A stretch of DNA of 64,000 nt from Gammaproteobacteria bacterium. Lineage in GTDB: Bacteria > Pseudomonadota > Gammaproteobacteria > VBWC01. Made by a program: the position numbers and the translations under genes. The notes beneath the pieces were generated by a model that was not told the origin of the DNA, ran no database searches, and was given only the letters and a program-made list of their open reading frames with translations. Position 1 is the stretch's first letter; each line of letters opens with the position of its first letter. This document shows positions 18,090 through 33,161 of this stretch, one piece after another. Location: the NCBI GenBank assembly GCA_023266115.1, contig JAHFRU010000007.1, positions 9,939 through 73,938 of the forward strand. Direction: 5' to 3'.

Positions 18090-19625
18090 TTACCCTCCGA
18101 CATTGTCGGTTACTCCCAAATCAGTGGCAATCGCCCGAAACTGCTCCAGCGCCGCTTCCAAATCCGCGACAATCTCCGCCGCGATAATATCCGGTGCGGG
18201 CAGGTTGTCGGAGTCCGACAGGCTCTCGTCCCTGAGCCAGAAGATATCCAGGCTCACCTTGTCGCGGGCGGCGATTTCGTCGTAGGTATAGGCGCGCCAT
18301 CGACCCTGCGCCGTCATTCCGGCCTCCGAGCCGGAATCCAGCCCCGAACGCCACGTTGCCTTTCGCTCGTGTCGATTGGCGGAGTTGTAGCACCTTACAA
18401 AGTCATCAAGATCTTCACGCTTCAACGGATCAGTCTTCAGTGTGAAGTGCATGTTGGTACGCAGATCGTATATCCAGAGCTTCTTCGTCCACGGGGTTTC
18501 GCTGGCGGGTTTCTTGTCGAAGAACAGCACGTTCGCCTTCACGCCCTGGGCGTAGAACAGGCCAGTGGGCAGGCGCAGCAGGGTGTGGACGTCGCATTCG
18601 TGCAATAACTTTCTGCGTATCGTTTCACCGGCGGCGCGGCCGTTTTGCTTGAGCAGGGTTTTAACGTGCTGGACGAAGTTGAGCTGTTTGTTCGAAGTGG
18701 TGGTCCAGAAGTCGCCGCGCTCGACGATGTCACGCTCTTTGCTGACTTTGCTTCTGACGTGCATGGATGCACTAATGTCGCGGGAGCCAGGGATGGCGGG
18801 AGCGACGTCGACGACAATCGTCGTGCTGCTCTTCTTGCCGAAGGGCGGATTGGTAAGTACGAGGTCGAAGCGGTCGCCGGGGTCGGCGGCCAGCGAGTCG
18901 GACACCACAATGGGCTCGAAGTCCTGGCTGCCGATACCGTGCAGCAGCATGTTCATGGCGCACAGCCGCGCCGTGGCCTGCACCAGCTCCCAGCCCTTGA
19001 AGGTTTCCTCCTTGAGCCTGGTCTTTTGCGGCTTGGTGAGGTTGGGATTTTGCTTCACCACATAGTCGTGCGCCGCGAGCAGAAAGCCGCCGGTGCCGCA
19101 GGCCGGGTCGCTCACGGTCTCGCCGGGCTTCGGGGCCATGACATCCACAATAGCCTGAATAAGTGGGCGCGGCGTGAAGTACTGGCCGGCGCCGGACTTG
19201 GTGTCCTGCGCGTTCTTTTCCAGCAGACCTTCGTAGGCATCGCCCTTCACGTCGGCGCTCATCGACACCCATTCTTCCTTGTCGATGAGATCGACCACCA
19301 GCCGCCGCAGCTTGGCCGGGTCCTGGAACTTGTTCTGCGACTTGTTGAAGATCAGCCCGAGCAAGCCCTTCCGGTTGCCCAGTGCCTCAAGCGTGTGGCG
19401 GTAGTGATCGAACAGCTCGTCGCCGTCTTTCTTGATGAGGCTCGGCCAATTGTATTTATCCAGCACCGGGCTCTTCTGGTTGTACGGCGCCCTGGTGCGC
19501 TCGTCGGCCATTTTGAGGAACAGCAGATAGGTGAGCTGTTCGACGTAGTCGCCATACGACATACCGTCGTCGCGCAGGACGTTGCAGTAGTTCCAGAGTT
19601 TTTGGACAATCGATGATGTGTTCAT
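18090..19625 (-). CDS. hsdM: Type I restriction-modification DNA methyltransferase subunit HsdM (with atypical internal features)
   Basis: 511 aa. HsdM N-domain MNTSSIVQKLWNYCNVLRDDGMSYGDYVEQLTYLLFLKMADE, AdoMet motif DPACGTGGFL, catalytic NPPFG. Carries an in-frame R1 repeat at 18311-18350. Confidence 0.9.
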   Translation of the reverse strand: MNTSSIVQKLWNYCNVLRDDGMSYGDYVEQLTYLLFLKMADERTRAPYNQKSPVLDKYNWPSLIKKDGDELFDHYRHTLEALGNRKGLLGLIFNKSQNKFQDPAKLRRLVVDLIDKEEWVSMSADVKGDAYEGLLEKNAQDTKSGAGQYFTPRPLIQAIVDVMAPKPGETVSDPACGTGGFLLAAHDYVVKQNPNLTKPQKTRLKEETFKGWELVQATARLCAMNMLLHGIGSQDFEPIVVSDSLAADPGDRFDLVLTNPPFGKKSSTTIVVDVAPAIPGSRDISASMHVRSKVSKERDIVERGDFWTTTSNKQLNFVQHVKTLLKQNGRAAGETIRRKLLHECDVHTLLRLPTGLFYAQGVKANVLFFDKKPASETPWTKKLWIYDLRTNMHFTLKTDPLKREDLDDFVRCYNSANRHERKATWRSGLDSGSEAGMTAQGRWRAYTYDEIAARDKVSLDIFWLRDESLSDSDNLPAPDIIAAEIVADLEAALEQFRAIATDLGVTDNVGG

Positions 19626-19631
19626 TGCGAA

Positions 19632-21095
19632 TCAGTGCACCGTTTTGACGAAGGCGCCAATGCGCCCGGGACAAGGCCAGCCATTCTTGCCCTTGTGTGG
19701 ATTGAGAGAACCATCATAAGACGAGCGCCTGAAAGTCTTGCCACATACCGTGCAGCGAAATACGTGCGTAGGCCCTTTGGAAGAGGATAATGGCCGCGTG
19801 GGTCTGTTATGTATAGTGAAGGGTTTCGCGATCCTCGGCCTACCCATTGACTGTCCCTCGATTGTCGGCGCCACCACAGGAGGCCCATCATCAGTTGGCT
19901 CGATGACGAAGCGAGGAATGAATGATCGACGTGTAGCCCTCGCGCCGGTGATTCGGTCAGCGCGATAGGCGCGCAATTCTCCTGTATCTACCTTGACCAC
20001 GTAGAACAGCAGGTTGCCCTCGCGGGTTCTCCACAACGTGTACGGCTCAACGGTGCGTGAACTTCTTCTGCCGCTCCCATCCCGATAATCGAGCTCCACA
20101 CACAGACGGTTCTCCGCCGCAAACCGAATCACCTCCAGCGGTGCCGAAACACCGAAACTACGCCAGGAAGTCGCCATGGCCGGCGGCCGCCACGAGATGT
20201 CGACCGGCTCCTCTTCTTCTTTGACGCGCATAACCGGAAGCTCGACTCGTGGCTTCTGCTCGAACAGCCAGGCAAAGACCTCCGGCAGCTCGCTCCAGAA
20301 GCTATCGAAGGGTGGTAGCTCAGGAAGTTGGTGGGCCAGCATCTGCTCCCATGCGGCGCGAAGCTCGCCCACGAGCGGCGACTCTCGAATCAACTGCAGC
20401 GTCGGAACCGGTATCGCTTTGAATTCGCACTTCTGCTGCAACGTCGAGAGAATTGCGGTGCGATCAGGCTCCAATTCTCGCCGGCGGTACAGGTCTACGA
20501 CATCATAGAGATCCCGCGGACGCAGTCTTTCAGCCAGCGCCCTGACCTTTTCCGCAAACACCTCTTCGAAGGAATAAGTAGTGACCACGATCCCGTCGGC
20601 AGGGCAATCGCTATAGGGGTGACGAACCTGCCTTCTGTCCGGGTCGAGCACGACACGTTCATCATCGGTCAGGTCAAGCTTGATGCGCGGTGCGTCACCC
20701 ACGCGTCCGAGCGGGCCCCGATAACCGATACGTCCTTCCGCCGATTTCCCGCCGCGAGGATTCGTGTACACATCCACCTTGCGCGTTTCCGGCGGCATGA
20801 CGAGCCCCGTCTGCTCGTAGACCCAGTCGGCGACTTCTTGAAAGAGTTTCCCAAGATACGCTTCGTCCAGATGTTTATGCTCAAGCAGCGTGAAGTCCAG
20901 ATCCTCGGAGAAGCGGTAGGTTTCGAAGAAACATTTCTTGAGACAGGTACCACCCTTGAAAAGCCATGAGTCGCGCGTGTCCGGGTGCTGACCAAAACCG
21001 GCCAGTAGCCAGCCCAGCGCATAATCCTTTTCAATGACATTTGACGCAAGACCGAAGTCTGCCGCCAGGTCGAGCATTTCCTGCCGCGGAATCAT
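19632..21095 (-). CDS. AbiEii/AbiGii-family nucleotidyltransferase toxin fused to a WYL domain and a C-terminal CxxC...H...C tail
   Basis: N-terminal NTase FKGGTCLKKCFFETYRFSEDLDF. WYL-like block LEVIRFAAENRLCVELDYRDGSGRRSSRTVEPYTLWRTREGNLLFYVV...LRAYRADRI. Tail FRCTVCGKTFRRSSYDGSLNPHKGKNGWPCPG. Its ATG at 21095 overlaps the abiEi stop (ATGA). Confidence 0.8.
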   Translation of the reverse strand: MIPRQEMLDLAADFGLASNVIEKDYALGWLLAGFGQHPDTRDSWLFKGGTCLKKCFFETYRFSEDLDFTLLEHKHLDEAYLGKLFQEVADWVYEQTGLVMPPETRKVDVYTNPRGGKSAEGRIGYRGPLGRVGDAPRIKLDLTDDERVVLDPDRRQVRHPYSDCPADGIVVTTYSFEEVFAEKVRALAERLRPRDLYDVVDLYRRRELEPDRTAILSTLQQKCEFKAIPVPTLQLIRESPLVGELRAAWEQMLAHQLPELPPFDSFWSELPEVFAWLFEQKPRVELPVMRVKEEEEPVDISWRPPAMATSWRSFGVSAPLEVIRFAAENRLCVELDYRDGSGRRSSRTVEPYTLWRTREGNLLFYVVKVDTGELRAYRADRITGARATRRSFIPRFVIEPTDDGPPVVAPTIEGQSMGRPRIAKPFTIHNRPTRPLSSSKGPTHVFRCTVCGKTFRRSSYDGSLNPHKGKNGWPCPGRIGAFVKTVH

Positions 21096-21925
21096 GGTGC
21101 TTGCCACCCCTCGGGCAGCCAAAGACGCCACGCCGTGACAAGTCGCTTGGCCGGCAGCGCCGGGTCCAGCTTGGCATTGCCTTTCGTGAGCGACCTGGCG
21201 CACTGCGCAATCGCCTCACGCTCGTCCGGTGCAAAGCGTTCCAGCAAATAGCCGAGCCGTTTGAACACGGCGCCTACGCCGAAGGTGTCCGCATAGGACA
21301 GGAGTTGTCCGACGTTTCGGTACTCCTTTGAGGCAAGATAGTTCTGCAGCATGTCAGCCGAAGACCGCAGCCCACCGCCGAGCGACGGATCTGACAGCAG
21401 ATCGATGATGGTTCGAGCAGGGTCGCTGACCTTCACCCGCGTTCGCCCACGCCAGATGGTCTTGAGCCCGAAGAACTCTTTTTCACTTACGGTGCGCAAA
21501 CGAAAAGCTATCCCCCCCATCTTCGGTTCACGGTTTCGAAAGCGGCGGGTTGTCGATACCTGCACTGTGCGAAAAACCTGCTCGGTCAGTCCCCAGTGCT
21601 CTGCGGCGCTCCAGCCGCTAATGAAGCAGGGAGCGAACGCCGCCTCGGCGATTACCCATGAATCTTCAGGGGACGGGTCTGCGCGCTCGCTTTCCAGGGA
21701 TACGGGGACGTAGATTCCCCGTCGCATCCGCTGTAACCAGCCTTGCGCGGCCCACCGCGAGAGCAGCTTCGCGGCATCGACTCGCGAAACCGATAAGACC
21801 TCCGCTGCCATCGCCGGGGTGACGGTACCGGTCGACTTGCGTAAGACTGCCGCTAGCTGCGCACGAGAGGCCTTTCCCAAGCCGGATAGGGACTGATCGG
21901 TATACTTTAGGCGCTTTTGTTCCAT
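21092..21925 (-). CDS. AbiEi-family type IV TA antitoxin (wHTH transcriptional regulator)
   Basis: 277 aa from the ATG at 21925. Typical AbiEi features are TPAMAAEVLSVSRVDAAKLLSRWAAQGWLQRMRRGIYVPV and GWSAAEHWGLTEQVF. The part of the ORF upstream of 21925 is hsdM-fragment and repeat sequence. Confidence 0.8.
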   Translation of the reverse strand: MEQKRLKYTDQSLSGLGKASRAQLAAVLRKSTGTVTPAMAAEVLSVSRVDAAKLLSRWAAQGWLQRMRRGIYVPVSLESERADPSPEDSWVIAEAAFAPCFISGWSAAEHWGLTEQVFRTVQVSTTRRFRNREPKMGGIAFRLRTVSEKEFFGLKTIWRGRTRVKVSDPARTIIDLLSDPSLGGGLRSSADMLQNYLASKEYRNVGQLLSYADTFGVGAVFKRLGYLLERFAPDEREAIAQCARSLTKGNAKLDPALPAKRLVTAWRLWLPEGWQAP

Positions 21926-21989
21926 TCCAGATGGAATTACAGCACTTCTAGTGTACTTTTTCAAGCCCTCTGGGCCCAACCGGCACGCC

Positions 21990-22325
21990 TTTGGAGATAA
22001 GGCTCGGCCAACTGTACATCGAAGGCACCGAGCTCTTTTGGTTATACGGCGCCTGCGACCGCCATGGATGGCGGAAGGTACGACTGCATGGATGCAGGAG
22101 GTACGAGTCCATGGATGGACGAGGTAGAGCGGCGTCTGGAACAGCCGCCGAGAGCAACGCATGGAGCAGTTGCCGAGGAGCGGCCTCGACATAATCGTCA
22201 TACGACATACCGTCGTGACCGGAGCGCAGCGCAGGAAATACTTGATGAACCCCAAAGGGGTTCTGAAGTGCGCGTAGGACGTTGCAGTAGTTCCAGAGTT
22301 TTTGGACGATAGTTGTAGTGTTCAT
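21990..22325 (-). pseudogene. 5' fragment of hsdM, disrupted by repeat insertions
   Basis: Encodes MNTTTIVQKLWNYCNVLR...DGMSYDDYVE...APYNQKS...WPSLI. These are the same blocks as the N-terminus of the full hsdM, interrupted by unrelated sequence and an R1-type repeat (22035-22160) and truncated at about 21990. Confidence 0.8.
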
Positions 22326-22367: not shown

Positions 22368-24263
22368 CTATGGTCCTTGCCACAGTTCACGCGCGAACTC
22401 AAATAGTTCTCGACTCCTTTGGTCAATAGAGCCCTCGTTCCATTCATGGGCGCGCATGAGTTTGCGATTAAGGTGGAGATTTGATTCTGCAAACAGAGCC
22501 TCTCGCTTACGATCAATCCCGTGATGTTGGAGACCTCTATTAACCCCATAGTGCAACAACGTGAGATTACCGATATTTACTTTTGCGTTTTCGCGTCGTT
22601 GGATTGCCGCGCTCCGGTCATTAGGTGCTGTTTCGAGAAACACATCCATCGCGGACTTCTCTAGCTCTTCTCTCGTTACGAAACTACCGTCTGTTAGCGG
22701 CCAATGCTCCAGCCAACTACTGGGCAGAATATGATCCACATCGAGCGCATCAAGAGCGAGAATAAGTGGCTCTTCTGTCCTCGCAGACCGCATCTTTCGT
22801 TCGAGCGATGCCAGTATTGATTTTGTGCGTGCTGCGTCAAGTCGTCCTGGGTACATTGCCGCCTCGAGCCATGACTTGCGAAACTCATCTTCGCGTGGCC
22901 ATCTGGACGCCGCTCCCTGCAATCCAGCCCGCGCTTTTCTCAACACCGCAGGCATCAGCTCTTCACCCGCGATATTCTTAAGCTGTTGGATAAATACCTT
23001 GTTGTAGTTCTTTGTCGTCAACCCACAGACTGCCCTGCGAACCAAGTAAGACTCAATGTCCGCGTACATAGCCGCCTGTTCAGTTTCGGTACATCCAGAC
23101 ATGGCCACTGCAAGCGCAAGAGGGTGCATTGTCGAGGCGTCCCAAGCTGCCACCTGCCGACCGAATCGTGCGATTGGCGTATCGCCCGTACCACTCACCA
23201 GTTGCCGATAGTGCTCCGAGTACTCATTCAGGATGCGCAATTGATCGCTTGCAGAAACTGTTGTCTTACGACCAACGGCAAATCGACGGTATCCGACGTA
23301 AAGTCGGCCGACGTCAACCTCTTCTCCCAACGCTGCCTGTAGCGCAGTTTGTATAAACCATTCAAGACGTGGCCGCTTGAGCCGACCACGACGCTGCTCT
23401 TCCGACCAGAATGTGCTTTCGAACGGGCTCCAGAGGGCATCATAGAGCTGGCCAGCGTCTGTGCCCTCTCGATCCGCGCGCATGAAAACGAAGTTACGTA
23501 TCAGATCGGTTGCATGTAGTTGCGCGCCGTGCCCATTGAGCGTTTCAAAGATAACTTGCGCATCATCGTCCTCACCCAGGGAGATCGTCACCATATTAAG
23601 GTCCTTTAATACGGCTTCGGTAATCGCAGTTGTACGCGCGATTCGCTCTGGGCCGTTCTCTTGGCCGATCCATTGCGTCATCTGTTCGTTGAAGTACCAA
23701 ATGGCCTCCAGCGCTGGCGGATGGTCGATACCAATTTTCCTGAGCCCACCGCCTTGGGTGAAGCTTTCCGGAAAGGTCTCGCGCAGTGAGGCCTTCTCGC
23801 GGGCCAGCATTGCTGCCTTATATGTAGATCGATCCCGAAATGTCGGCCACACCTTGAATACCTCTGTGTCCGGCTGTTCCATGGTTTCCGTATTTGGATT
23901 GGTAAGGCAGCCCTCAACTAGAAACAGCAGCGCCGCAGGGCCAGCGTCACGCAGAACGATCGCCAATGCCGCCAGCACATATTGAAGAGTCGTGAGGCGT
24001 TGTTGGCCATCGATTATGTGCAATGCCTCTACGCCCAATAGACCTCGACGTGGTTGGGGTTCTAGGACAGCGGCGCCTAAAAAGTGAGGGGCAGGCTGCG
24101 CGCCAGTTATTCTTCCCTCGGCTTTATCCTGAATATCTGCCCACAGCCGCTCCCACTGATCCTCCTTATTCCATACGTACGCACGCTGGTAAAATGGTAC
24201 ACGGTATTGCCGCCTATCTTGAAACAGCTGAAGCACTGCTATCGTTTCTGATTTCATGTACAT
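22368..24263 (-). CDS. DUF262/DUF1524 (GmrSD-like) type IV restriction-type nuclease
   Basis: 631 aa. N-terminal ParB-like DUF262 motifs FYQRAYVW and IIDGQQRLTTL. C-terminal His-Me/HNH-like DVDHILPSSW...NLTLLHYGVNRGLQHH. Confidence 0.85.
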   Translation of the reverse strand: MYMKSETIAVLQLFQDRRQYRVPFYQRAYVWNKEDQWERLWADIQDKAEGRITGAQPAPHFLGAAVLEPQPRRGLLGVEALHIIDGQQRLTTLQYVLAALAIVLRDAGPAALLFLVEGCLTNPNTETMEQPDTEVFKVWPTFRDRSTYKAAMLAREKASLRETFPESFTQGGGLRKIGIDHPPALEAIWYFNEQMTQWIGQENGPERIARTTAITEAVLKDLNMVTISLGEDDDAQVIFETLNGHGAQLHATDLIRNFVFMRADREGTDAGQLYDALWSPFESTFWSEEQRRGRLKRPRLEWFIQTALQAALGEEVDVGRLYVGYRRFAVGRKTTVSASDQLRILNEYSEHYRQLVSGTGDTPIARFGRQVAAWDASTMHPLALAVAMSGCTETEQAAMYADIESYLVRRAVCGLTTKNYNKVFIQQLKNIAGEELMPAVLRKARAGLQGAASRWPREDEFRKSWLEAAMYPGRLDAARTKSILASLERKMRSARTEEPLILALDALDVDHILPSSWLEHWPLTDGSFVTREELEKSAMDVFLETAPNDRSAAIQRRENAKVNIGNLTLLHYGVNRGLQHHGIDRKREALFAESNLHLNRKLMRAHEWNEGSIDQRSRELFEFARELWQGP

Positions 24264-25111: not shown

Positions 25112-25636
25112 TCAGGAGGATTTCTTAGCGGGCAGGCCATGGGCAACCAAGTTGTAACCGACTGCATTGAGTTTGTACTCTCCTCTTGCAGCCGTCTCGA
25201 AATACCCCGACTTCTTGGCATCCACCAATACTTGCGCCACTATCTTTGGGAGTTTGAAGTTTGCCTGCTTGAAATACTTTTCTATGTCCTGCGCAGAGAC
25301 AGTCTTCTTTCGCTCGCTTTCTGGAGCCAACTCCTGCAAGTAGTAGGCAACGATACACGCCATCTGCTTTGCTGAATCCGGATTCTTTTCCTCTTTGAGC
25401 GACCGTATATCGACTTTTTTTCCGTGGTGCTGCTGGGGCTGGTGATGTACTCCTGCCTCTGCCTGAACTGCCGGATACGCAGCACTACCCTGACCTTGCA
25501 TCTGCGGAGACAACTTCACGTTGAGATGCGCACAAGCAGCTGCAACAGCGGTGTTCCTGGCTTCCTGATCAAGTCCTTCTAGTGCAGAAATGATCGTGTC
25601 AATTGCTTGACCAAGCGTGGGTTTCGTATCCGACAT
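25112..25636 (-). CDS. Hypothetical protein Y: helical N-terminus, Q/H-rich linker, C-terminal winged-helix-like domain
   Basis: The ATG at 25636 is preceded by AAGGAG with a 7-nt spacer. The TTG start in the ORF track (25660) is less likely. It lies 20 bp downstream of the hsdS stop. AT-rich codon usage. Confidence 0.6.
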   Translation of the reverse strand: MSDTKPTLGQAIDTIISALEGLDQEARNTAVAAACAHLNVKLSPQMQGQGSAAYPAVQAEAGVHHQPQQHHGKKVDIRSLKEEKNPDSAKQMACIVAYYLQELAPESERKKTVSAQDIEKYFKQANFKLPKIVAQVLVDAKKSGYFETAARGEYKLNAVGYNLVAHGLPAKKSS

Positions 25637-25656: not shown

Positions 25657-27151
25657 TCAATATGCGGTTCTAGTCACTGGTTGCCCGGCTACTTGTCGCT
25701 GATCAATCAAAAGTCCACCGGAAAACGCCTCACAAAGGATCGATTGGCGCATACGTTCAGCGCGCCTGTAGTTGGTGTCGACTTGCACCTCGACTTCAGT
25801 GACAAGTGAAAGGCGGCGTTCAACTTCCGCAACGAGCCGATTCTGCTCAGCGACGGGCGGCAGAGGAACCGGGAATGCACTTAGCTTTGTGAGGTTGATA
25901 GATGCAAGATTCGTTGTCTGCTTACCCTCCCGCAAGAAATAGTCCTTGCCAAAGGAATTCCCCCACCATGACACGAGCTTCGGCGAAACCTCGCTCAAGA
26001 AAAGTCGCGCGCGGAAAACGTGGTTTTGATGGATGCAATCGGTCAACTGCCCTTCCCAAATCCAACCGCGACCAAGCTTGTCGCGGTCTCCACCTTCGTT
26101 GAAGAGAATGTCGCCACGCTGCAAGCGTAGCTCTTTTATGTCGGATTCTGGTGCATCAATGAATTTCACTTCGGAAAGATCGAGATAGCCGCGCTGGACA
26201 TTAGCAACACGAAGATACGCTACTGACCGAGCAGTCGAGTCTTTGCGCTTGCTATCGACGGTAATCCCGCCTTTGAGTGCAGCGATTACATCGAGTCGCG
26301 CCCACACCCACCCCTCTGGCAATTCAGGCAGATCGGTGGTGTCTGGCGCTGTAGGTTCTTTGTATTTGCCCTTGCCTTTCCACTGGCTGCGGCGGGTTTC
26401 GAGGATGCGTTGCAGGAGTTGCTCGCCGGTCTCAAAGCTGCGTACCTCTCGACGTGCAATCTCGGCTTCGGTTTCGACGAGGCGGCCTTCGACGGCGGCT
26501 TTGAGGACGGCGGCTTTGTAGCGCTTGAGGTTGACCTTGACGCGCTTGAGGTCGGCGACGGCTTCGTCGAGGCGGGAGAATTGTTTTTCGATTTCCGCGA
26601 CGATGCGTTTTTGTTGGTCGAGGGGGGGCGACGGGAATCGTGGCTTCTTTTAGATAGGTAGTTGAAACACGCTTCTGACCTACAGCACCCGTCATGTACC
26701 GTTCTGCCTCGCCACGGAATGACTGACTTGAAACGTAGTAGTAAAGATACTTGGCGTCGATTCCAGCCTTTGGTCTGAGCACATGGAACTCGGTTGAGCC
26801 AAAACCGTAGCCGTTAACAAGTTTCGGAACAACGGCCATCTTTCCGTTTTCCATACAGGGTGTAATCTTGGCAAAAAGAACGTCGCCCTCAAGAAATGCT
26901 GTAAATCCTTTTTTTACTTCACGCGCTGGTCGCGATTCATCAACGTGAATTGAGCCATCACCTGCACCAACCGCAGGCATCGGAACAAACGACACGGGCA
27001 AGTCATCGGCAATCACCGATTTGTCGAGGCGTGGATTGACGTCGGCGATCTGCTCAATGGGCAGCGCTGGCCATACGTCTTGGCCCGTCGCTTTGTCTTG
27101 GTGGGTTACGGCCTCCGGCCTAATCCACCCTACATTTTTATGATTCGTCAT
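25657..27151 (-). CDS. hsdS: Type I R-M specificity subunit HsdS, interrupted by a +1 frameshift at a C7 (plus-strand G7) tract
   Basis: TRD1 is 27151-26640 (...TEFHVLRPK...IPVAP). After the homopolymer at 26622-26628 the central conserved helix LDQQKRIVAEIEKQFSRLDEAVADLKRVKVNLKRYKAAVLKAAVEG continues in another frame. That frame runs into TRD2 and the C-terminal conserved region (25657-26322). Removing one C restores a single ORF. Confidence 0.85.
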
Positions 27152-27231
27152 GCCGCCAACGTATCGTTCAATTCTTCAATGATAGTGTTCAGCTTGTCGC
27201 CGAATAGTTGACGTACTTTGCCGAGTCCGCC
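27148..27231 (-). pseudogene. Duplicated 3' end of hsdR (remnant)
   Basis: Encodes ...GGLGKVRQLFGDKLNTIIEELNDTLAA* versus ...GGLGKVHQIFGDNLNTIIEELNETLAA* at the true hsdR end (28365-28448). Its stop overlaps the hsdS ATG. Confidence 0.8.
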
Positions 27232-27335
27232 CTCACCCCTGCCATCGGCAACTGCTCCCTGCGTTGCTCTACCTCCCGCATCCCTGCGGTCGTCTTCCAG
27301 AGGGGGAGGGAGAAAAAATGTTGTGGAGCCTCGCG

Positions 27336-28361
27336 TCATTTCTTCTTCGCCGGTTTGTCACTCGGCAACCGCTTGATGGCCTGATCGAAGTCGAGCTCGA
27401 CGCGGCTCGGTACCGCGAGTTGTTGTTTGCGGAATTTATCGTATTCCTGTTCGGCCTTATCCAGCGCTTCCTGGTGCGACACGTTCCCCGCGTGGGTGAG
27501 GATGTCGCGTTCGCCAAGGCGCAGGAAGTCGTCGAGTTTGGCGATCCAGTTTTTCATGTACATGGGTTTGCGGCTGCGCGCTTGTAGCTCGGCGAATTCG
27601 AGATAGCCGTTGACGATGCGGTTGAGCGTATCGAGTTCTTCGGCATTGAGATAATTCTTGGCGATAGCGGCGTCTTCCTTACGCGGTTGGCTTCCTGCCC
27701 ATGAGGTGAGGCCCATGTTTGCCTTCCCGGCATCAGCGCGCTCAACTATGACTTCGGCGGCGGTTTGGCCGTGCGCGGCCCAGTGCATTTTGTTTTGTAC
27801 GGTGGCAAAGAAAAGTTGCGAGGCTTCTTCCGCCGGGCCGTAGTCGATACTGGTGGCGTAGATGTCCAGCACTTTGCGCCAGAAAACTTTCTCCGAAGAG
27901 CGGATGTCGCGAATGCGCGCGAGCAGCTCGTCGAAGTAGTTGCCGCCACCGCCGCGCTTGAGGCGTTCGTCATCGAGAGCGAAGCCTTTGATGATGTATT
28001 CGCGCAATTGCTGCGTAGCCCAGATGCGGAATTGCGTGCCGCGATGGGATTTGACGCGATAGCCGACAGAGATGATGACGTCGAGGTTGTAGTGAGCGAC
28101 ATCGCGCTCCACCTGCCGTTTGCCCTCGCTTTGAACTATCCGGAAATTCCGGATAGTTGGTTCCGGGGTTAGTTCACCCTCTTCATAGACATTGCGTATA
28201 TGTTCGCTGATGGTGCGGACGTCCTTCTGAAACAGCTCGGCCATCTGCTTTTGAGTCAACCAGACGGTTTCGCCCTGAAAGGTTACCTCCAACCGAGTTC
28301 TTCCGTCCTCGGTCTGGTAGAGGATGAATTGGCCGGTGGATTCGTTGTTTTCTTTTTTCAT
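27336..28361 (-). CDS. rhuM: RhuM-family protein (DNA-binding protein commonly embedded in type I R-M loci)
   Basis: 341 aa. N-terminus FILYQTEDGRTRLEVTFQGETVWLTQKQMAELFQKDVRTISEHIRNVYEEGEL and the body are typical of the RhuM family. Confidence 0.8.
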   Translation of the reverse strand: MKKENNESTGQFILYQTEDGRTRLEVTFQGETVWLTQKQMAELFQKDVRTISEHIRNVYEEGELTPEPTIRNFRIVQSEGKRQVERDVAHYNLDVIISVGYRVKSHRGTQFRIWATQQLREYIIKGFALDDERLKRGGGGNYFDELLARIRDIRSSEKVFWRKVLDIYATSIDYGPAEEASQLFFATVQNKMHWAAHGQTAAEVIVERADAGKANMGLTSWAGSQPRKEDAAIAKNYLNAEELDTLNRIVNGYLEFAELQARSRKPMYMKNWIAKLDDFLRLGERDILTHAGNVSHQEALDKAEQEYDKFRKQQLAVPSRVELDFDQAIKRLPSDKPAKKK

Positions 28362-28364
28362 GGC

Positions 28365-31322
28365 TTATGCCGCTAATGTCTCGTTCAGTTCCTCGATGAT
28401 TGTATTCAGGTTGTCGCCGAATATCTGATGCACTTTGCCGAGGCCGCCTTCTTGGGTGAACGGCGGCAACTCGAAGTCATCCGCCTCGATGCTGAGATTC
28501 GCTGCGATGTGGTCGCGGATCATTTCGAGCCAACGAATTTGTTCTGCGGTGAAAGGCTCTGTAATTCCTGGACCCCGGCTTTCGCCGGGGTGACGGCCTT
28601 TTTGTTGGGTCGCGAGCCAGGCTTTGAAGTTGGCGTTGACGCGCTCGGGGAACGGGATGAGTTCGTTGTCCTGATGGATGGCGAAGCGCACGAGCGACAC
28701 GAGGTCAGTGAGGATACGTTTGCCGCTGGCGCCTTTGACCCTGGATTTTTCCAGCGCGGCGTAGGCGTTCCAGAGCTGGGATTCGTTCCACAGGTAGGGC
28801 GGTTTTTCGATGGCGTCGGCGAGTTCTTTCACGGCCTCGAAGGTGAGGCGGTGTTTCCAGGGTTTGCTGTAGAGCACTTGCAGGGCGGTGATTTCGTCTT
28901 TGTGTTCTGCAATGAATTGCTCGAAGGATTGGACCATGCCTTTGGCGCGGGCCAGGGCTTCGGGGGAGAAGGTGGCTTCGAGGACTTCGTCGGCGCTGAC
29001 GTGGTCGATGGTGATTTCGGTTTTGGCTTTTAGGTCAATCAACAATTGGCGCAGGGTTGGGTCGTGCAATGGTTTGACGGCGGCTTGCACGATTTGGCTG
29101 CGTTGCGCTTCGCGGTTGGGCGCCTGCGGCGCGGCTTGTACCCCCTCACCCCCGCCCTCTCCCGGAGGGAGAGGGGGTTGAGTTATGGCCTCGTCGATGG
29201 CATCGGGGTTCAGCGCTTGGACGATGCGATGCGCTAAATCTTTGAGGCCGTAGCCGCCGCTGGCGGCGCGAATCTTTTTGTCGTCGTCGGCGCTGATGCG
29301 GTGTTCCATTCTGGCCAGGCGGCCGGCGAGTGAGGTGAGTACGTCATCCTCGGTGTTGCCGAAGGCGACGGCTTGCATGAGTTTCTCGAAGCTGACGGTG
29401 GGCTTTTGCTCCATCGGTCTCGAATCGGTCTTGTCCTGCTCGCACACGCCAACGGCGTCGACGATGACGAAGTGGTCCTTGGCTTTGGCGTCGGGGGTGA
29501 CGCTTTGCAGGTCGTCGGCCTTCATGATGCGCACGCCGCGGCCTTTCATCTGTTCGAAGAAGGCGCGGGATTTGACAGCGCGCATGAAGAAAACGACCTC
29601 CACCGCCTTGATGTCGGTGCCGGTGGCGATCATGTCTACCGTGACGGCGATGCGCGGCATGGGGCTGGTGCGGAATTCGTTGATGAGGTCTCTCGGTCTC
29701 GCGCCTGTTGTTTTGTACGTAATTTTCTGCGCGAAGTCGTTTCCCTTGCCGAATTCCTCGCGCACGATCTCGACGATGTTTTCGGCGTGGGCGTCGTCCT
29801 TGGCGAAGATGAGGGTCTTGGGCACCCAGGTGCGGCCGGGGAAGATTTCGGTGAACAGTTTGTCGCGGAAGGTGCGGACAATGGTGCGGATCTGGTCCGG
29901 GGCGACCACGTCGCGGTCGAGCTGGTTGGGGTCGTAGTTGAAGTCGTCGTCGAGCTGTTCCCAGCGCTTCTTGCGGGTGTCGCGCTCCATGATCTGCACG
30001 GCATAGCCGGATTCGACTTTTGAACCGGCCTCGGTGATCCGGGTGCGGATGCGGTAGACGTCGTAGTTGACGTTGACGCCGTCGGCCACGGCCATTTCGT
30101 GGTTGTATTCCATCACCAGGTTCTGCTTGAAGAACCCGAAAGTCTGCTTGCCGGGCGTGGCGGTAAGGCCGATGAGGTAGGCATCGAAGTATTCCAGCAC
30201 CTGTGCCCAGAGGTTGTAGATGGAGCGGTGGCATTCGTCGGTGACGATGATGTCGAAGGTTTCGATGGGGATGGCCGGGTTGTATTCGATGGGCTCAGGC
30301 TGTTTGAACAGGCTGCCGAGTTTATCCACTGATTCTTCTTCGAGGTCTTCGGGCAGGTCCCTGCCCTTGAGTATGGAGTACAGGCGCTGGATGGTGCAAA
30401 TGCAGACCCGCGCGGTTTTATCGAGCGTGCTGCTCGACAGGCGCTGGACGATGTATTCCTCGGTGAACTTGAAGTTGTTGTAGGGCGAGGCGTATTGCTG
30501 GAATTCCTTGAGCGTCTGGTCGCCGAGGTTGCCGCGGTCCACCAGGAACAGCACGCGCCGCGCGCCGGCGAATTTGATGAGCCGGTAGATGAACGATATG
30601 GCAGTGAAGGTTTTGCCGGAGCCGGTCGCCATCTGGATCAGCGCGCGCGGGCGGTTTTGCTTGAGCGATTGTTCGAGGTTGTGGATGGCGGTGATCTGCG
30701 CGGGCCAGAGGCCTTCTACGATCAGCGGCGGCATGTGTCGCAGGCGGGCGAGGAAGGTAGCCCCCTCTCCCCAACCCTCTCCCGGAGGGAGAGGGAGAGC
30801 AGAAATTGGTGTCGCTTCTGCGACGTTTCCCCGGGATGCGCTTTGCTTATCCCAGGCTACATCCAGTAATTTCGCCAGAGCGGCCGGTGTGTGAAACGCA
30901 AACACAGGACGTGAACGCGGTTCCGGGTCCAGGCCGTTGGTGAACTGGGTTTCGATGCCGGTGGATTCGTACGCGAACGGTAACGGCCGCGACCACGCGG
31001 GTAATCCGCCCGGCAAACCTTTGGTGTATTTGTCCGATTGAATTTCCACGCCCTTGAGCGTTGTGCCGGCTTTCTTCGCTTCAATGACACCTGCGGCTTT
31101 GCCATCTATATAAAGAAGGTAATCCGCCGCGCCGTGTCCGGGCAGCGGGAATTCCTCAATCGCGACGCCGCGCGCAGCGTGAATATTGGCCTGATCGGCG
31201 GCGCAGACTTCCCAGCCGGCCAGTGTGAGCAACCGGTCGATTTTCGAACGCGCTTCCTGTTCTGGTGTGGCGCCTGGCGTCACTGTGGCTATTCCCTCCC
31301 CCGAGAGGTGGAATCGTAGCAC
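28365..31322 (-). CDS. hsdR: Type I restriction endonuclease subunit HsdR (SF2 helicase-nuclease), with two in-frame palindromic-repeat insertions
   Basis: Walker A MATGSGKTFTAI, DEAH-type box TDECHRS, helicase C motifs, conserved C-terminal domain. The true start is probably the GTG at 31283 behind GGGAGGG. Sequence upstream of that is shared with the 32.5 kb duplicate. Confidence 0.9.
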   Translation of the reverse strand: MLRFHLSGEGIATVTPGATPEQEARSKIDRLLTLAGWEVCAADQANIHAARGVAIEEFPLPGHGAADYLLYIDGKAAGVIEAKKAGTTLKGVEIQSDKYTKGLPGGLPAWSRPLPFAYESTGIETQFTNGLDPEPRSRPVFAFHTPAALAKLLDVAWDKQSASRGNVAEATPISALPLPPGEGWGEGATFLARLRHMPPLIVEGLWPAQITAIHNLEQSLKQNRPRALIQMATGSGKTFTAISFIYRLIKFAGARRVLFLVDRGNLGDQTLKEFQQYASPYNNFKFTEEYIVQRLSSSTLDKTARVCICTIQRLYSILKGRDLPEDLEEESVDKLGSLFKQPEPIEYNPAIPIETFDIIVTDECHRSIYNLWAQVLEYFDAYLIGLTATPGKQTFGFFKQNLVMEYNHEMAVADGVNVNYDVYRIRTRITEAGSKVESGYAVQIMERDTRKKRWEQLDDDFNYDPNQLDRDVVAPDQIRTIVRTFRDKLFTEIFPGRTWVPKTLIFAKDDAHAENIVEIVREEFGKGNDFAQKITYKTTGARPRDLINEFRTSPMPRIAVTVDMIATGTDIKAVEVVFFMRAVKSRAFFEQMKGRGVRIMKADDLQSVTPDAKAKDHFVIVDAVGVCEQDKTDSRPMEQKPTVSFEKLMQAVAFGNTEDDVLTSLAGRLARMEHRISADDDKKIRAASGGYGLKDLAHRIVQALNPDAIDEAITQPPLPPGEGGGEGVQAAPQAPNREAQRSQIVQAAVKPLHDPTLRQLLIDLKAKTEITIDHVSADEVLEATFSPEALARAKGMVQSFEQFIAEHKDEITALQVLYSKPWKHRLTFEAVKELADAIEKPPYLWNESQLWNAYAALEKSRVKGASGKRILTDLVSLVRFAIHQDNELIPFPERVNANFKAWLATQQKGRHPGESRGPGITEPFTAEQIRWLEMIRDHIAANLSIEADDFELPPFTQEGGLGKVHQIFGDNLNTIIEELNETLAA

Positions 31323-31473
31323 GCGGGGGGTGATGGGGAAATTTCGGGGCGACGCCGGTTACTCGTTCTCCCCGGTCCGTGCAAACCGGGCCAGTACTGC
31401 CTTGCCGTTCGCGGTCAGGCGGTACTTTGGCTTGTCGGGAACTGACATCTCCACGCGTCCGGCATCGAGACCA

Positions 31474-32484
31474 TCATCCTCTTTCGCCGTCCTCCTGAAG
31501 CAGATTCAGAATCAACCGAACCAGCAGTTGCTTGTGCGCCGGGTCGCTCGCGGCGACGAGCAAGGCGACGGCGACCAGCGCGTTATCGGCAAAACGTGGT
31601 GTTCCATCGGGTTTGGTCAACACACCGTTGCGATCGAGGTAAAGCAGAAACAGGAGACTGCCGACGCGTTTGTTGCCATCGGAAAACGGGTGATCCTTGA
31701 TCACGAAATATAACAAGTGTGCAGCGCGTGATTCGACACTCGGGTAGAGCATTTCACCACCGAATATTTGCTCGATGGCGCCCAGAATACCGTCCAGCGC
31801 GTTGCTCCGCTCCTGCCCGAATAACGCGGTGGCTTCGTTCTTCGCAATAAGCGACTGTTTCAGTCTCACGATGGCATCGCGGCACGCTTTGGGTGATAAA
31901 CCCGCAACGGGCGGCGTCGGGCGCGCGGGTACTTCGGGCAGACGGTTTTCGTCGTATTGCAACAGCAAGCGCCACGAGCGGGCATAGTGCGTCACTACAT
32001 CCAGCAGCGCCCTGCCTTGATCGTTAACCATCTCTTGCGCGGACAACGTTTTTGCCAGCAGACGCACGGCCGTCTCCATTTCGGTGAGGCCCTTTTCCCG
32101 CAGGCGGCGCTCGTTGAGCGTGTAGCCCCGGACCAGATGATCGCGGAGCGTGCGGGTGGCCCAGATGCGGAATTGGGTGCCGCGTTGGGATTTGACCCGG
32201 TAGCCCACGGAAATGATGACATCCAGATTAAAGAACCTGACGGGCTTGTCCGAACCTGCAATGTGCAAATTTTGCACATTGCTTTCTTCGTCCAGCTCGT
32301 CCTCCTTGAATACGTTATTGATGTGCTTGGTGATAACTGAGCGTTCCCGGCCAAACAGCTCAGCCATCTGCGCCTGGGTCAGCCAAACGGTGTCACGCTC
32401 CAGACGCACGTCCAGTCGGATTTGGCCGTCCGGGGCTTCAAACAGCGCGACTTCTCCACCGGGCCGGGGGTCGTTTTTTCTCAT
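31474..32484 (-). CDS. RhuM-like N-terminal domain fused to a Doc-type Fic domain (death-on-curing family)
   Basis: N-terminus VALFEAPDGQIRLDVRLERDTVWLTQAQMAELFGRERSVITKHINNVFKEDEL parallels RhuM. The C-terminus carries HPFSDGNKRVGSLLFLLYL, which is the Doc variant of the Fic motif. I prefer the ATG at 32484. Confidence 0.8.
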   Translation of the reverse strand: MRKNDPRPGGEVALFEAPDGQIRLDVRLERDTVWLTQAQMAELFGRERSVITKHINNVFKEDELDEESNVQNLHIAGSDKPVRFFNLDVIISVGYRVKSQRGTQFRIWATRTLRDHLVRGYTLNERRLREKGLTEMETAVRLLAKTLSAQEMVNDQGRALLDVVTHYARSWRLLLQYDENRLPEVPARPTPPVAGLSPKACRDAIVRLKQSLIAKNEATALFGQERSNALDGILGAIEQIFGGEMLYPSVESRAAHLLYFVIKDHPFSDGNKRVGSLLFLLYLDRNGVLTKPDGTPRFADNALVAVALLVAASDPAHKQLLVRLILNLLQEDGERG

Positions 32485-32634
32485 GCGAGTCGATGCCTGT
32501 TGTTCTGGTGTGATGGTACTACTGGTCGCCCTTCCTGACGTATTGAATCGTAGCACGCGGGGAGTGATGGGGAATATTTTGGGCGGGCGGACCAACGGTG
32601 GTTTGCTATCAGTAATTGTACTGCCCGACCGGTT

Positions 32635-32925
32635 TCAGGCTCTCGGCTTCCAATATCCCGGCGATCGCCTCAGGTTCATCACGGCGACGATTTCAATGGT
32701 GTCGGATCGTACCCGGTAGACTTACCCCATAGGGGAACCGCGCCATCCGGTACCTGCGTATTCCGCTTTCTACCTCGCGGTAGGACCGGGGTGACGCTGT
32801 ATGCGGTGCAGCGCTTCTTCGAGTTCGTCGACGAAACGTTGCGCCAGGCCCTGCTGTTGATCGTGGTAGAAGGCGGCGGCCGCATCTGCTTCTGCTTTGG
32901 CGTCCTCGTGCCAGCGCAGTTTCAT
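32635..32925 (-). pseudogene. ParE/RelE-family toxin gene with at least two frameshifts
   Basis: Frame a gives MKLRWHEDAKAEADAAAAFYHDQQQGLAQRFVDELEEALHRIQRHPGP. Frame b gives YREVESGIRRYRMARFPYGV. Frame c gives VYRVRSDTIEIVAVMNLRRSPGYWKPRA*. The ATG overlaps the antitoxin stop (ATGA). Confidence 0.75.
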
Positions 32926-33161
32926 CGCGCGTATTTTGCCCGCAGTTCGTTGATCACGCTGGCGCTGTCGATCAACGTGGTTTTTTTGCTATCGATATCC
33001 GCGCAGCGGCGGCGAATCCCTTCCAGCCATTCCTGCGAGACGGCGAAGTCCTGATCAAGATCGAGGCTTTCAATGAGCGTCTCCGCGACGAAGGCGCGTT
33101 CGGTGGGTTCGAGCTGCATGGCATCGTCGAGGATTTTTTTGGGATCGGGTTTGGCGGCCAT
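32922..33161 (-). CDS. Addiction-module antitoxin (TIGR02574-like 'putative addiction module component')
   Basis: 79 aa. ILDDAMQLEPTERAFVAETLIESLD...SQEWLEGIRRRCADID is typical of this antitoxin family. Confidence 0.75.
   Translation of the reverse strand: MAAKPDPKKILDDAMQLEPTERAFVAETLIESLDLDQDFAVSQEWLEGIRRRCADIDSKKTTLIDSASVINELRAKYAR

What the first reader, a model, noticed from the sequence alone, without database searches (positions are those of the whole stretch)
18090..33161. 15-kb defence island assembled on a scrambled type I R-M scaffold
On the minus strand the gene order is:
- RhuM-Doc
- hsdR
- RhuM
- hsdR 3' remnant
- hsdS (frameshifted)
- Y and X
- DUF262/DUF1524
- hsdM 5' fragment
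- abiEi and abiEii-WYL
- full hsdM

A decayed ParE-type TA pair sits at the upstream edge. That makes at least six accessory immunity or TA modules interleaved with the three hsd genes.

The hsd order is R-S-M, and about 6 kb separates S from the only full M. The usual arrangement is an hsdM-hsdS translational unit, so this order is unusual. No integrase or transposase is present, so site-specific mobility does not explain the mosaic.
Basis: partly seen in the sequence, partly recalled or inferred. Interest (0 to 1): 0.7.

Follow-up and report, generated by a model that had tools for sequence, protein, structure and literature searches.

The report
Defence genes nested in restriction locus
This 15-kb stretch is a type I restriction-modification locus, in its family's normal gene order, with four other immunity or toxin modules between its genes and one just upstream; this kind of defence island is already known, but leftover gene-end fragments here hint at how the modules were added.

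Summary
The gene list is correct. On the minus strand lie a ParD-like antitoxin, a decayed ParE, RhuM-Doc, hsdR, RhuM, an hsdR 3' remnant, hsdS (frameshifted), Y, X, GmrSD, an hsdM 5' fragment, abiEi, abiEii-WYL and hsdM.

The "scrambled scaffold" reading is not supported. In all 48 related loci where hsdR and hsdS were both detected next to an hsdM homologue, the order is R-S-M on one strand. Compact loci have the genes abutting or overlapping. R-S-M is this family's native order.

The hsdR|hsdS and hsdS|hsdM junctions are insertion hot spots. S-M gaps range from 5 nt to 8.8 kb, and the gap ORFs match 77 Pfam families. Genes embedded in type I loci are already described in the literature.

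Three things are less ordinary:
- Inserts are often bounded by co-oriented fragments of the adjacent hsd gene end (11-12 of 47 hsdM-side loci, 6 of 16 hsdR-side, zero control hits). This points to integrase-free, homology-anchored capture of cassettes.
- Y-X is a conserved, uncharacterised gene pair absent from PADLOC.
- hsdS carries one extra C in a C7 tract, so the type I module is off as assembled.

Close relatives carry different content at the same chromosomal site.

The parts
32922..33161 (-). ParD-like antitoxin (Unstab_antitox), intact, at the upstream edge
   Evidence: PF09720 at 6.6e-10; TIGR02574. It is conserved next to the MT207 gene in relative L167.
32635..32925 (-). ParE-like toxin pseudogene with two frameshifts; its start overlaps the antitoxin stop (ATGA)
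   Evidence: Sequence and three-frame translation. The repaired protein hits PF05016 ParE_toxin at 2.1e-14.
32495..32590 (-). Scar: a duplicate of the hsdR leader (with a TGCTACGAT extended -10-like motif) and the first hsdR codons (TPEQQA), lying upstream of RhuM-Doc
   Evidence: Repeat D9, 88% identical; alignment; 92% over 39 nt. In L167 the ParE remnant runs straight into the hsdR leader with no RhuM-Doc.
31474..32487 (-). RhuM N-terminal domain fused to Fic/Doc (PADLOC candidate PDC-S23)
   Evidence: PF13310 and PF02661; PDC-S23 at 3.8e-126.
28365..31283 (-). hsdR, full length, probable GTG start at 31283. It carries two in-frame palindromic insertions at 29141-29175 and 30761-30795.
   Evidence: ResIII, Helicase_C, EcoEI_R_C and HSDR_N; NF008521 at 1e-114; 78-82% amino-acid identity to relatives; palindromes.
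27336..28361 (-). RhuM (PADLOC PDC-S05), inserted between hsdR and hsdS
   Evidence: PF13310 at 1e-117; PDC-S05 at 3e-151.
27148..27339 (-). 63-codon bridging ORF. Its start overlaps the RhuM stop (ATGA). It runs through REP-like elements (27245-27310) into the last 28 codons of an hsdR remnant (27148-27234). Its stop overlaps the hsdS start (ATGA).
   Evidence: Sequence; repeat D2 at 79%; 82% over 85 nt with no control hits; match to the L081 hsdR 3' end at 84%.
25657..27151 (-). hsdS with two target-recognition domains, broken by one extra C in the C7 tract at 26622-26628
   Evidence: PADLOC Specificity_I PDLC03127, positions 12-162 and 248-454; sequence; alignment to intact relatives; a 497-aa ORF after removing one C.
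25112..25636 (-). Y: small protein with an N-terminal helical domain, a variable linker and a probable C-terminal winged helix. It is the obligate upstream partner of X.
   Evidence: No Pfam, PADLOC or NCBIfam hit. About 1395 homologues. AlphaFold2 pLDDT 75.5, with only weak winged-helix matches in the PDB. Directly upstream of X in almost every locus whose contig extends that far.
24297..25106 (-). X: all-alpha protein with a pP_pnuc_1 (predicted pPIWI-associating nuclease) domain and an invariant R235-x5-H241 motif
   Evidence: PF18165 at 2.7e-11. About 1386 homologues. Invariant columns. AlphaFold2 pLDDT 77 with no PDB fold or sequence match.
22368..24263 (-). GmrSD-type type IV (modification-dependent) restriction enzyme
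   Evidence: GmrSD_N and GmrSD_C; PADLOC mREase_IV at 3.9e-192; 91% amino-acid identity to the L081 copy in the same slot.
21986..22325 (-). Scar: about the first 200 nt of an hsdM gene, keeping the GmrSD-hsdM junction seen in L081 and interrupted by REP-like insertions (around 22100-22270)
   Evidence: Repeats D6, D7 and D11; alignment with L081; identities; REP copies.
21092..21925 (-). abiEi (antitoxin and transcriptional regulator)
   Evidence: AbiEi_4 and AbiEi_1; PADLOC AbiEi at 1.4e-101.
19632..21095 (-). abiEii nucleotidyltransferase toxin fused to a WYL domain and a Cys-rich tail
   Evidence: AbiEii and WYL; PADLOC AbiEii at 2.5e-169. The same pair sits directly upstream of hsdM in L006, L014, L031 and L073.
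18090..19625 (-). hsdM, full length, with the NPPF and DPACGTGGF motifs present
   Evidence: N6_Mtase and HsdM_N; PADLOC MTase_I at 1e-184; sequence.

Best explanation
What it is (shown). The block is one chromosomal type I R-M locus of a widespread family whose native, co-directional order is hsdR-hsdS-hsdM. In compact members hsdR and hsdS are translationally coupled and hsdM follows directly.

Hot spots (shown). The R|S and S|M junctions of this family are insertion hot spots, and to a lesser degree the hsdR 5' end. Here they hold RhuM-Doc, RhuM, Y-X, GmrSD and AbiEi/AbiEii-WYL. All are co-oriented with the hsd genes and tightly spaced.

How the cassettes arrived (inferred). They came by RecA-type recombination anchored in the conserved hsd gene ends, not by a site-specific recombinase. 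An incoming piece from another locus of the family pairs on one side within hsdM or hsdR. On the other side it is joined illegitimately a short way into the resident gene. The resident gene end is left behind as a scar, and the imported end restores a full-length gene. Repeated events would stack cassettes, with the newest next to hsdM or hsdR.

Order of events here (inferred). An L081-like R-S-Y-X-GmrSD-M locus later gained AbiE at the hsdM 5' end, RhuM at the hsdR 3' end and RhuM-Doc at the hsdR 5' end.

Function (inferred from the families). The modules give layered immunity:
- Type I restriction acts on unmodified DNA.
- GmrSD acts on modified DNA.
- AbiE, RhuM/Doc and Y-X act as abortive-infection or toxin modules.

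As assembled, the extra C in hsdS switches off both type I methylation and restriction. The embedded modules should not depend on HsdS.
For: Gene identities.

R-S-M is the family norm:
- All 48 genome loci with R, S and M share that order and strand, and no locus has R or S downstream of M.
- S starts at the last R codon in L004, L006, L016, L044, L048 and L076.
- The RefSeq plasmid NZ_CP028920 is annotated helicase-S-DUF262-methyltransferase.
- The hsdR remnant in the window still ends in an ATGA overlap with the hsdS start.

Hot spots:
- S-M gaps run from 5 nt to 8.8 kb.
- 144 gap ORFs hit 77 Pfam families. These include RhuM, Fic, AbiE, HepT, DarT/Macro, GmrSD, Schlafen/AlbA_2, AAA_15/21, reverse transcriptases and HerA.

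Scars:
- hsdM 5' fragments occur in 11-12 of 47 loci with an S-M gap over 1 kb, and three loci have two fragments.
- hsdR 3' fragments occur in 6 of 16 enlarged R-S gaps.
- Each fragment type occurs only in its own gap and only in the gene's orientation. There were zero opposite-strand hits and zero cross hits.
- Fragment ends differ from locus to locus, from about amino acid 11 to at least 150 of HsdM.

Before and after:
- L081 is colinear at about 80% nucleotide identity. It has R-ORF6N-S-Y-X-GmrSD-M, without AbiE, RhuM or RhuM-Doc.
- The window's hsdM scar keeps L081's GmrSD-hsdM junction.
- L167 joins the ParE remnant directly to the hsdR leader.

No recombinase gene lies in the block.

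Literature on embedding: PMC11411939, PMC12255303 and bioRxiv 10.1101/2024.01.29.577857.
Against: - No donor sequence is available, so the illegitimate joints and any microhomology cannot be seen.
- The sliding-window comparison of the window's hsdM with L081 shows no sharp breakpoint. Identity is about 89% over the first 300 nt and about 93% after that. Import of the present hsdM 5' end is therefore not demonstrated.
- About three quarters of the filled S-M gaps have no detectable scar. Either scars decay or other routes exist.
- Two DDE transposase ORFs occur among the gap ORFs of other loci, so transposition contributes elsewhere.
- Defence activity has not been tested for RhuM, RhuM-Doc or Y-X.
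- The hsdS frameshift could be a homopolymer sequencing error.
- Consensus promoter and terminator scans were at chance level, so co-transcription is only inferred from spacing and orientation.
Confidence: 0.75

Rival explanations
1. One reading: an ordinary hsdM-hsdS/hsdR locus was rearranged (scrambled) into R-S-M while accessory genes accumulated.
For: The classical enterobacterial type I loci are R-M-S or M-S-R (general knowledge). The locus contains hsd fragments.
Against: R-S-M is found in 48 of 48 relatives across many phyla, including compact loci with overlapping genes and an annotated plasmid. The fragments are only termini of the adjacent gene, in the same orientation. No inversions were found.
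Confidence: 0.03
2. The scars are leftovers of a second type I locus that once lay in tandem, or of a tandem duplication, and was mostly deleted. On this view cassettes were not captured one by one.
For: The fragment and the full copy are diverged (73-90% identity), as two old paralogues would be. L167 shows that large internal deletions of hsd genes do happen at this site.
Against: No hsdS fragments and no internal hsdR or hsdM fragments lie in the gaps. Only hsdM 5' ends occur in S-M gaps and only hsdR 3' ends in R-S gaps, with zero cross hits in any of the 64 distinct loci examined. The same pattern recurs independently in many phyla. Several loci have two nested scars of the same end.
Confidence: 0.1
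3. Cassettes are inserted by a site-specific or transposition machinery encoded elsewhere (in trans) that targets hsd gene ends and carries a replacement end, as tRNA-targeting islands do.
For: Full-length hsdM and hsdR are always restored. Scars lie on the outer side of the cassette, as with islands that target gene ends. DDE transposases occur in two gap ORFs of other loci.
Against: No recombinase lies in or next to the window's block. Scar lengths vary widely, from about 30 to about 450 nt. No shared border repeat was seen. The cassette families are unrelated to one another.
Confidence: 0.1
4. The locus is a decaying remnant: a type I system already dead (hsdS frameshift, ParE decay, REP invasion), with its embedded genes in neutral decline rather than forming a working defence island.
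For: hsdS is frameshifted. ParE has two frameshifts. REP-like elements have colonised both scars and even hsdR. Relative L167 has lost most of the type I system.
Against: hsdR, hsdM, GmrSD, AbiEi/Eii, RhuM, RhuM-Doc, X and Y are all full length and match full-length profiles. The REP insertions in hsdR are in frame and lie in linkers that vary among relatives. hsdS has a single lesion, in a homopolymer, which may be reversible or an assembly error.
Confidence: 0.15

Closest known systems
Defence genes embedded in type I R-M loci ('guilt by embedding', Payne et al., bioRxiv 10.1101/2024.01.29.577857; PADLOC PDC candidates)
   Same: Co-oriented accessory defence genes lie between hsd genes. RhuM (PDC-S05), RhuM-Doc (PDC-S23), GmrSD-like proteins and AbiE are among the known embedded families.
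   Different: That work gives no mechanism for embedding; it offers only the 'genomic sink' idea. Here the borders carry hsd-end scars. Y-X has no full match in PADLOC-DB 2.0.0.
TgvAB in the Vibrio cholerae VPI-2 type I R-M cluster (PMC11411939), and RloF in Campylobacter jejuni
   Same: A GmrSD-family type IV restriction function sits inside a type I operon. It is thought to complement restriction of unmodified DNA by attacking modified phage DNA.
   Different: TgvAB is a two-protein system lying between hsdR and hsdS. Here a single-chain GmrSD lies between hsdS and hsdM, together with three other modules.
DarTG2 embedded in the EPEC type I R-M island RRDM (PMC12255303), and PrrC in EcoprrI
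   Same: A toxin-antitoxin or abortive-infection module sits inside a type I locus and is co-regulated with it. DarT/Macro also occurs in gaps of this family.
   Different: Those loci are in M-S-...-R order with one embedded module. No RptR-like first gene was identified here.
Homology-facilitated illegitimate recombination and allelic replacement at the enterobacterial immigration control region (general knowledge, not tested here)
   Same: Foreign DNA is acquired through one-sided or flanking homology, without an integrase.
   Different: It has not been described, to my knowledge, as the way cassettes are stacked inside type I loci. Here it is an inference from scars, not an observed event.
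Phase-variable type I hsdS genes with homopolymer tracts, e.g. NgoAV of Neisseria gonorrhoeae (general knowledge)
   Same: A frameshift in a homopolymer run inside hsdS.
   Different: The tract has only 7 C. The truncated N-terminal product lacks the central helices. No population data exist, and a sequencing error cannot be excluded.

Membership tests
Type I restriction-modification system | HsdR with an SF2 helicase motor and an N-terminal PD-(D/E)xK nuclease | tested here: met
   ResIII, Helicase_C, HSDR_N and EcoEI_R_C; NF008521 at 1e-114. MATGSGKT, TDECHR and D...EAK motifs are present in the sequence.
Type I restriction-modification system | HsdM N6-adenine methyltransferase | tested here: met
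   N6_Mtase at 8.6e-58 and HsdM_N; MTase_I at 1e-184; NPPF motif.
Type I restriction-modification system | Intact HsdS with two target-recognition domains and conserved central and distal helices | tested here: not met
   Both target-recognition domains and the central region are present, but the ORF is split by one extra C in a C7 tract. It would be met after a 1-nt correction.
Type I restriction-modification system | Motif-specific m6A methylation and ATP-dependent restriction | not testable with these tools
   Needs methylome data or assays.
R-S-M subfamily of type I loci (operational, defined here) | Order hsdR-hsdS-hsdM on one strand, with an hsdR stop / hsdS start overlap | tested here: met
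   48 of 48 relatives. The window's order is R..S..M, and the hsdR remnant keeps the ATGA overlap with hsdS.
Embedded defence cassettes in type I loci | Non-hsd genes between hsd genes, in the same orientation, belonging to defence or toxin-antitoxin families | tested here: met
   RhuM, Y-X, GmrSD and AbiE lie between hsd genes, all on the minus strand.
AbiE (type IV toxin-antitoxin / abortive infection) | Adjacent AbiEi antitoxin and AbiEii nucleotidyltransferase | tested here: met
   AbiEi at 1.4e-101 and AbiEii at 2.5e-169, with overlapping genes. Activity was not tested.
GmrSD type IV restriction enzymes | DUF262 (GmrSD_N) plus DUF1524 (GmrSD_C) in one chain | tested here: met
   Both domains; mREase_IV at 3.9e-192 over the full length.
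ParDE-type type II toxin-antitoxin pair | Intact toxin ORF next to the antitoxin | tested here: not met
   The toxin has two frameshifts and is recognisable only after repair.
Integron-like or integrative cassette platform | Integrase or recombinase gene and conserved attachment sites at cassette borders | tested here: not met
   No recombinase ORF. The borders are hsd fragments of variable length, with no common repeat.
Phase-variable (contingency) hsdS | Homopolymer tract in the ORF whose length varies within populations | tested here: inconclusive
   A C7 tract with a +1 shift is present. Length variation cannot be assessed from one assembly.
HEPN nucleases (considered for X) | All-alpha fold with a catalytic Rx4-6H motif | tested here: inconclusive
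   An invariant R235-x5-H241 motif and an all-alpha model. But the motif lies in a low-confidence loop, and there is no fold or sequence match to any solved HEPN structure.

The most novel reading that the evidence does not exclude
Two linked ideas.

1. Type I loci of the R-S-M family may act as integrase-free platforms that accumulate cassettes. Cassettes would be stacked at the conserved hsdM 5', hsdR 3' and hsdR 5' ends by one-sided homologous recombination plus an illegitimate joint. Each event would leave a nested hsd-end scar that records the order of insertion and could serve as a homology arm for further spread or loss. Scar ORFs may also keep translational coupling, as in the chain hsdR - RhuM - 63-codon bridge ORF - hsdS.

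2. One cargo, Y-X (a winged-helix protein plus a pP_pnuc_1-domain protein with an Rx5H motif), may be an undescribed two-gene toxin or defence module.
Probability: 0.4. Interest if true: 0.55.

Novelty: new member of a known kind. Interest (0 to 1): 0.35.

Why it matters
As a defence island the locus is ordinary. Type I loci with nested RhuM, GmrSD, AbiE and similar genes are catalogued, and this one adds an example from an uncultured, probably gammaproteobacterial, chromosome.

Its value is as a clear before-and-after series. L081, L167, L169 and the window together show how embedded islands grow and shrink at one site without a recombinase. The recurrent, orientation-specific hsd-end scars offer a testable mechanism for "embedding", which the literature leaves open.

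The scars could also be used to find cassette borders, and so new defence candidates. Y-X is one such candidate: about 1,400 homologues and no annotation.

A practical point follows for annotation. Pipelines that expect hsdM-hsdS units will mis-score this R-S-M family.

Tried and rejected
- Exact-sequence look-up of the window's HsdM found nothing. The source genome is not among the species representatives; the best HsdM match is 83%.
- A near-identity search of the whole 15 kb against plasmids found no match.
- Consensus promoter and terminator scans of 17.8-33.5 kb were at or below chance, so transcription units remain undefined.
- I looked for a recombination breakpoint inside the full hsdM by sliding-window identity to L081 and others. 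There was no sharp change, so import of the hsdM 5' end is unproven.
- Scar-to-resident-gene identity was considered as an age measure for nested scars. I rejected it because it mixes donor divergence with age.
- Fold and sequence searches of X and Y against the PDB gave no significant match for X and only weak winged-helix similarity for Y.
- A guilt-by-association test for stand-alone Y-X pairs showed mostly housekeeping neighbours, with no obvious defence enrichment. A defence role for Y-X therefore rests only on its embedding in a sub-clade.
- The pPIWI-RE paper (PMC3702460) gave no information on PF18165.
- No tRNA gene lies near the block. The low-GC stretch at 52-60 kb is housekeeping (tig-clpP-clpX-lon-ppiD), not another island.

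Full report

Yes.

From 33161 down to 18090 the genes are:
- An intact Unstab_antitox antitoxin (32922-33161).
- A ParE-like toxin (32635-32925) with two frameshifts. It is recognisable as PF05016 (2e-14) only after repair.
- RhuM(N)-Fic/Doc (31474-32487; PADLOC PDC-S23, 4e-126).
- hsdR (28365-31283).
- RhuM (27336-28361; PDC-S05).
- An hsdR 3' remnant (27148-27234).
- hsdS (25657-27151).
- Y (25112-25636).
- X (24297-25106; pP_pnuc_1 domain).
- GmrSD (22368-24263).
- An hsdM 5' fragment (about 21986-22325).
- abiEi (21092-21925).
- abiEii-WYL (19632-21095).
- Full hsdM (18090-19625).

The hsdS lesion is a single extra C in a C7 tract at 26622-26628. Intact relatives read GC[A/G]CCCCTCGAC there. 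Deleting one C gives a 497-aa HsdS with two target-recognition domains.

No ORF in the block is an integrase or transposase, and there is no tRNA gene nearby.

The flanks are housekeeping genes: an OYE reductase and a greA-like gene on one side; a methyltransferase, bactofilin and glnE on the other. The rest of the window includes tig-clpP-clpX-lon. The context is therefore chromosomal.

**2. Is the hsd order scrambled?**

No. A scan of one genome per species with HsdM returned 80 loci from many phyla, at 57-83% identity. I mapped the window's proteins onto them.

- All 48 loci in which hsdR and hsdS were detected have R, then S, then M on one strand.
- No locus has R or S downstream of M.
- In compact members the S ORF begins at the last codon of R, and M follows within 5-260 nt.
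- A RefSeq-annotated Gemmobacter plasmid reads helicase (HsdR) - subunit S - DUF262 protein - methyltransferase, with overlapping genes.
- In the window, the hsdR remnant still ends in a TGA that overlaps the hsdS ATG. This is the family's ancestral R-S coupling.

So R-S-M is the native architecture of this family, and an hsdR-hsdS translational unit replaces the textbook hsdM-hsdS unit.

**3. What varies?**

The R|S and S|M junctions vary. S-M gaps run from 5 nt to 8.8 kb, so the window's 6.0 kb is within range.

The 144 ORFs found in these gaps hit 77 Pfam families. These include Schlafen/AlbA_2-HATPase_c_4, RhuM, AAA_15/21 ATPases, Fic/Doc, DUF5131, AbiEi/AbiEii/WYL, HepT, DarT plus Macro, GmrSD, HerA and reverse transcriptases.

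The AbiEi-AbiEii(WYL) pair sits immediately upstream of hsdM in four other loci from different phyla (L006, L014, L031, L073).

This is the known phenomenon of defence genes embedded in type I loci. Examples are TgvAB in V. cholerae (PMC11411939), DarTG2 in EPEC (PMC12255303), and the systematic "guilt-by-embedding" survey that produced the PDC-S05 and PDC-S23 models (bioRxiv 10.1101/2024.01.29.577857).

**4. History of this particular locus**

L081 is a 1.5-Mb contig of a Gammaproteobacteria MAG. It carries hsdR-ORF6N-hsdS-Y-X-GmrSD-hsdM, colinear with the window at about 80% nucleotide identity, in a different chromosomal neighbourhood. It lacks AbiE, RhuM and RhuM-Doc, and its hsdS is intact.

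The window's hsdM fragment keeps L081's GmrSD-hsdM junction. It is slightly closer to L081 than to the window's own full hsdM (96% against 89% over the first 56 nt). It ends about 200 nt into the gene and has been invaded by REP-like elements of the host genome.

At the same chromosomal site in close relatives (found through glnE):
- L169 (glnE 76% identical) has glnE-bactofilin-methyltransferase followed directly by an hsdR that is 85% identical in protein.
- L167 (glnE 89% identical) has the same antitoxin and ParE remnant joined directly to the hsdR leader, with no RhuM-Doc. After that comes only an internally deleted hsdR remnant, followed by a different set of genes (a D12-class methyltransferase, a DUF87/HerA-like ATPase and others).

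The site is therefore a fast-turnover hot spot.

**5. How were the cassettes added?**

Each of the three later inserts in the window is bounded on its outer side by a fragment of the adjacent hsd gene:
- The hsdM 5' end lies before AbiE.
- The hsdR 3' end lies after RhuM.
- The hsdR leader plus its first codons lie before RhuM-Doc.

I tested whether this is general. For each locus I searched its own hsdM 5' 450 nt against its own S-M gap, and its own hsdR 3' 450 nt against its own R-S gap.
- hsdM 5' fragments occur in 11-12 of 47 loci with an S-M gap over 1 kb. L002, L060 and L078 each have two.
- hsdR 3' fragments occur in 6 of 16 enlarged R-S gaps. L003 has two.
- There were no opposite-strand hits in any locus.
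- There were no cross hits (hsdR 3' in S-M gaps, hsdM 5' in R-S gaps) in any locus.
- Fragment end-points differ between loci, from about amino acid 11 to at least 150 of HsdM.
- hsdR-leader duplicates upstream of hsdR are rarer: the window and L082/83 only.

Variable end-points, strict orientation and position, and the absence of a recombinase fit recombination anchored in the conserved hsd ends. The donor cassette plus its adjoining hsd end pairs homologously on one side. On the other side it is joined illegitimately a short way into the resident gene. The resident end is stranded as a scar. Once a scar exists it can serve as a second homology arm for spread or loss.

This step is inference. 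No donor is available, and the sliding-window comparison of hsdM shows no sharp breakpoint.

**6. The unknown pair Y-X**

Each of X and Y has about 1,400 homologues.

In 80 metagenomic loci, Y lies directly upstream of X in almost every case where the contig extends that far.

Only the clade at least 61% identical to the window's X is embedded between hsdS and hsdM of this type I family (L081-83, L085-89, L117). More distant pairs stand alone, in neighbourhoods that are mostly housekeeping.

X is predicted to be all-alpha (pLDDT 77) and has no fold or sequence match in the PDB. It has an invariant R-x5-H motif, which is reminiscent of HEPN nucleases but unproven.

Y has a probable C-terminal winged helix, based on weak matches.

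Neither protein has a full match in PADLOC-DB 2.0.0. The arrangement suggests a toxin-antitoxin-like module, with a DNA-binding partner first and the effector second. Its function is unknown.

**7. Function of the whole block**

These roles are inferred from the families.
- The type I enzyme would restrict unmodified DNA.
- GmrSD would attack modified DNA, the complementarity shown experimentally for TgvAB.
- AbiE, RhuM/Doc and Y-X would act as abortive-infection or toxin modules.

The genes are co-oriented, with gaps of 0-190 nt. The 63-codon ORF at 27148-27339 overlaps the RhuM stop at its start and the hsdS start at its end. It may preserve translational coupling, although an open frame of that length could arise by chance.

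As assembled, hsdS is out of frame, so type I methylation and restriction should be off. The data cannot distinguish phase variation, a true pseudogene and a homopolymer sequencing error. Other long genes in the window are intact, which argues against pervasive indel errors.

**8. Verdict**

It is a real, variable defence island on a type I locus. It is not scrambled, and it belongs to a described kind.

Novelty: new member of a known kind.

The modest extra interest lies in two things. The scar pattern gives a testable, integrase-free mechanism for embedding. Y-X is an uncharacterised pair.

Noticed in passing
window 29141-29175 and 30761-30795 (inside hsdR): Two copies of a palindromic element (CCCTCTCCCGGAGGGAGAGGG) are inserted in frame in hsdR. 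They encode PLPPGEGxGEG in linker regions that vary among relatives. These are the only copies in the 64-kb window. Relatives carry other REP-like in-frame insertions at the same linkers (L001, L003, L004, L081).
   Followed up: partly
window 189, 2395, 22126, 22151, 27245, 34816: A second REP-like family (AGAGCRRCG..GCCGA hairpins) has six copies in the window. Three of them lie inside the hsdM and hsdR scars. This implies the scars have been resident long enough to be colonised by the host genome's repeats.
   Followed up: partly
window 27148-27339: A 63-codon ORF starts with an ATGA overlap on the RhuM stop and ends with an ATGA overlap on the hsdS start. It reads through the REP-like elements into the last 28 hsdR codons. 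It may act as a translational-coupling bridge, or the open frame may be chance.
   Followed up: no
L167 9763-15394: In the closest relative (glnE 89% identical), the type I locus at this site is reduced to an internally deleted hsdR remnant. It is followed by a D12-class adenine methyltransferase, a DUF87/HerA-like ATPase and two unannotated ORFs, possibly a different defence system.
   Followed up: no
window 14561-15160 (minus strand): An ORF combines a MarR-like HTH with a Pol-beta/MNT-type nucleotidyltransferase domain, about 3 kb outside the island. It may be part of another toxin-antitoxin-like module.
   Followed up: no
window 34032-34952: The bactofilin ORF has a roughly 130-codon N-terminal extension made largely of translated REP-like repeats (SFPRKRES...). 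Relatives' bactofilins are 169-174 aa, so the true start is probably internal.
   Followed up: no
L087 5630-6183 and 7467-8933; L086: Another S-Y-X locus has a long hsdM 5' fragment (at least 449 nt, 84% identical) followed by about 1.3 kb of inserted DNA and then a full hsdM. This is an independent example of the scar pattern next to the Y-X cassette.
   Followed up: partly
L017, L050, L055 (hsdR): Several hsdR genes are split into many frames. L017 and L050 are 'MFD' MAGs; L055 is a Verrucomicrobiae MFD MAG with four pieces. The cause was not examined; it might be assembly indel errors. It is a caution when reading frameshifts such as the window's hsdS C7 tract.
   Followed up: no
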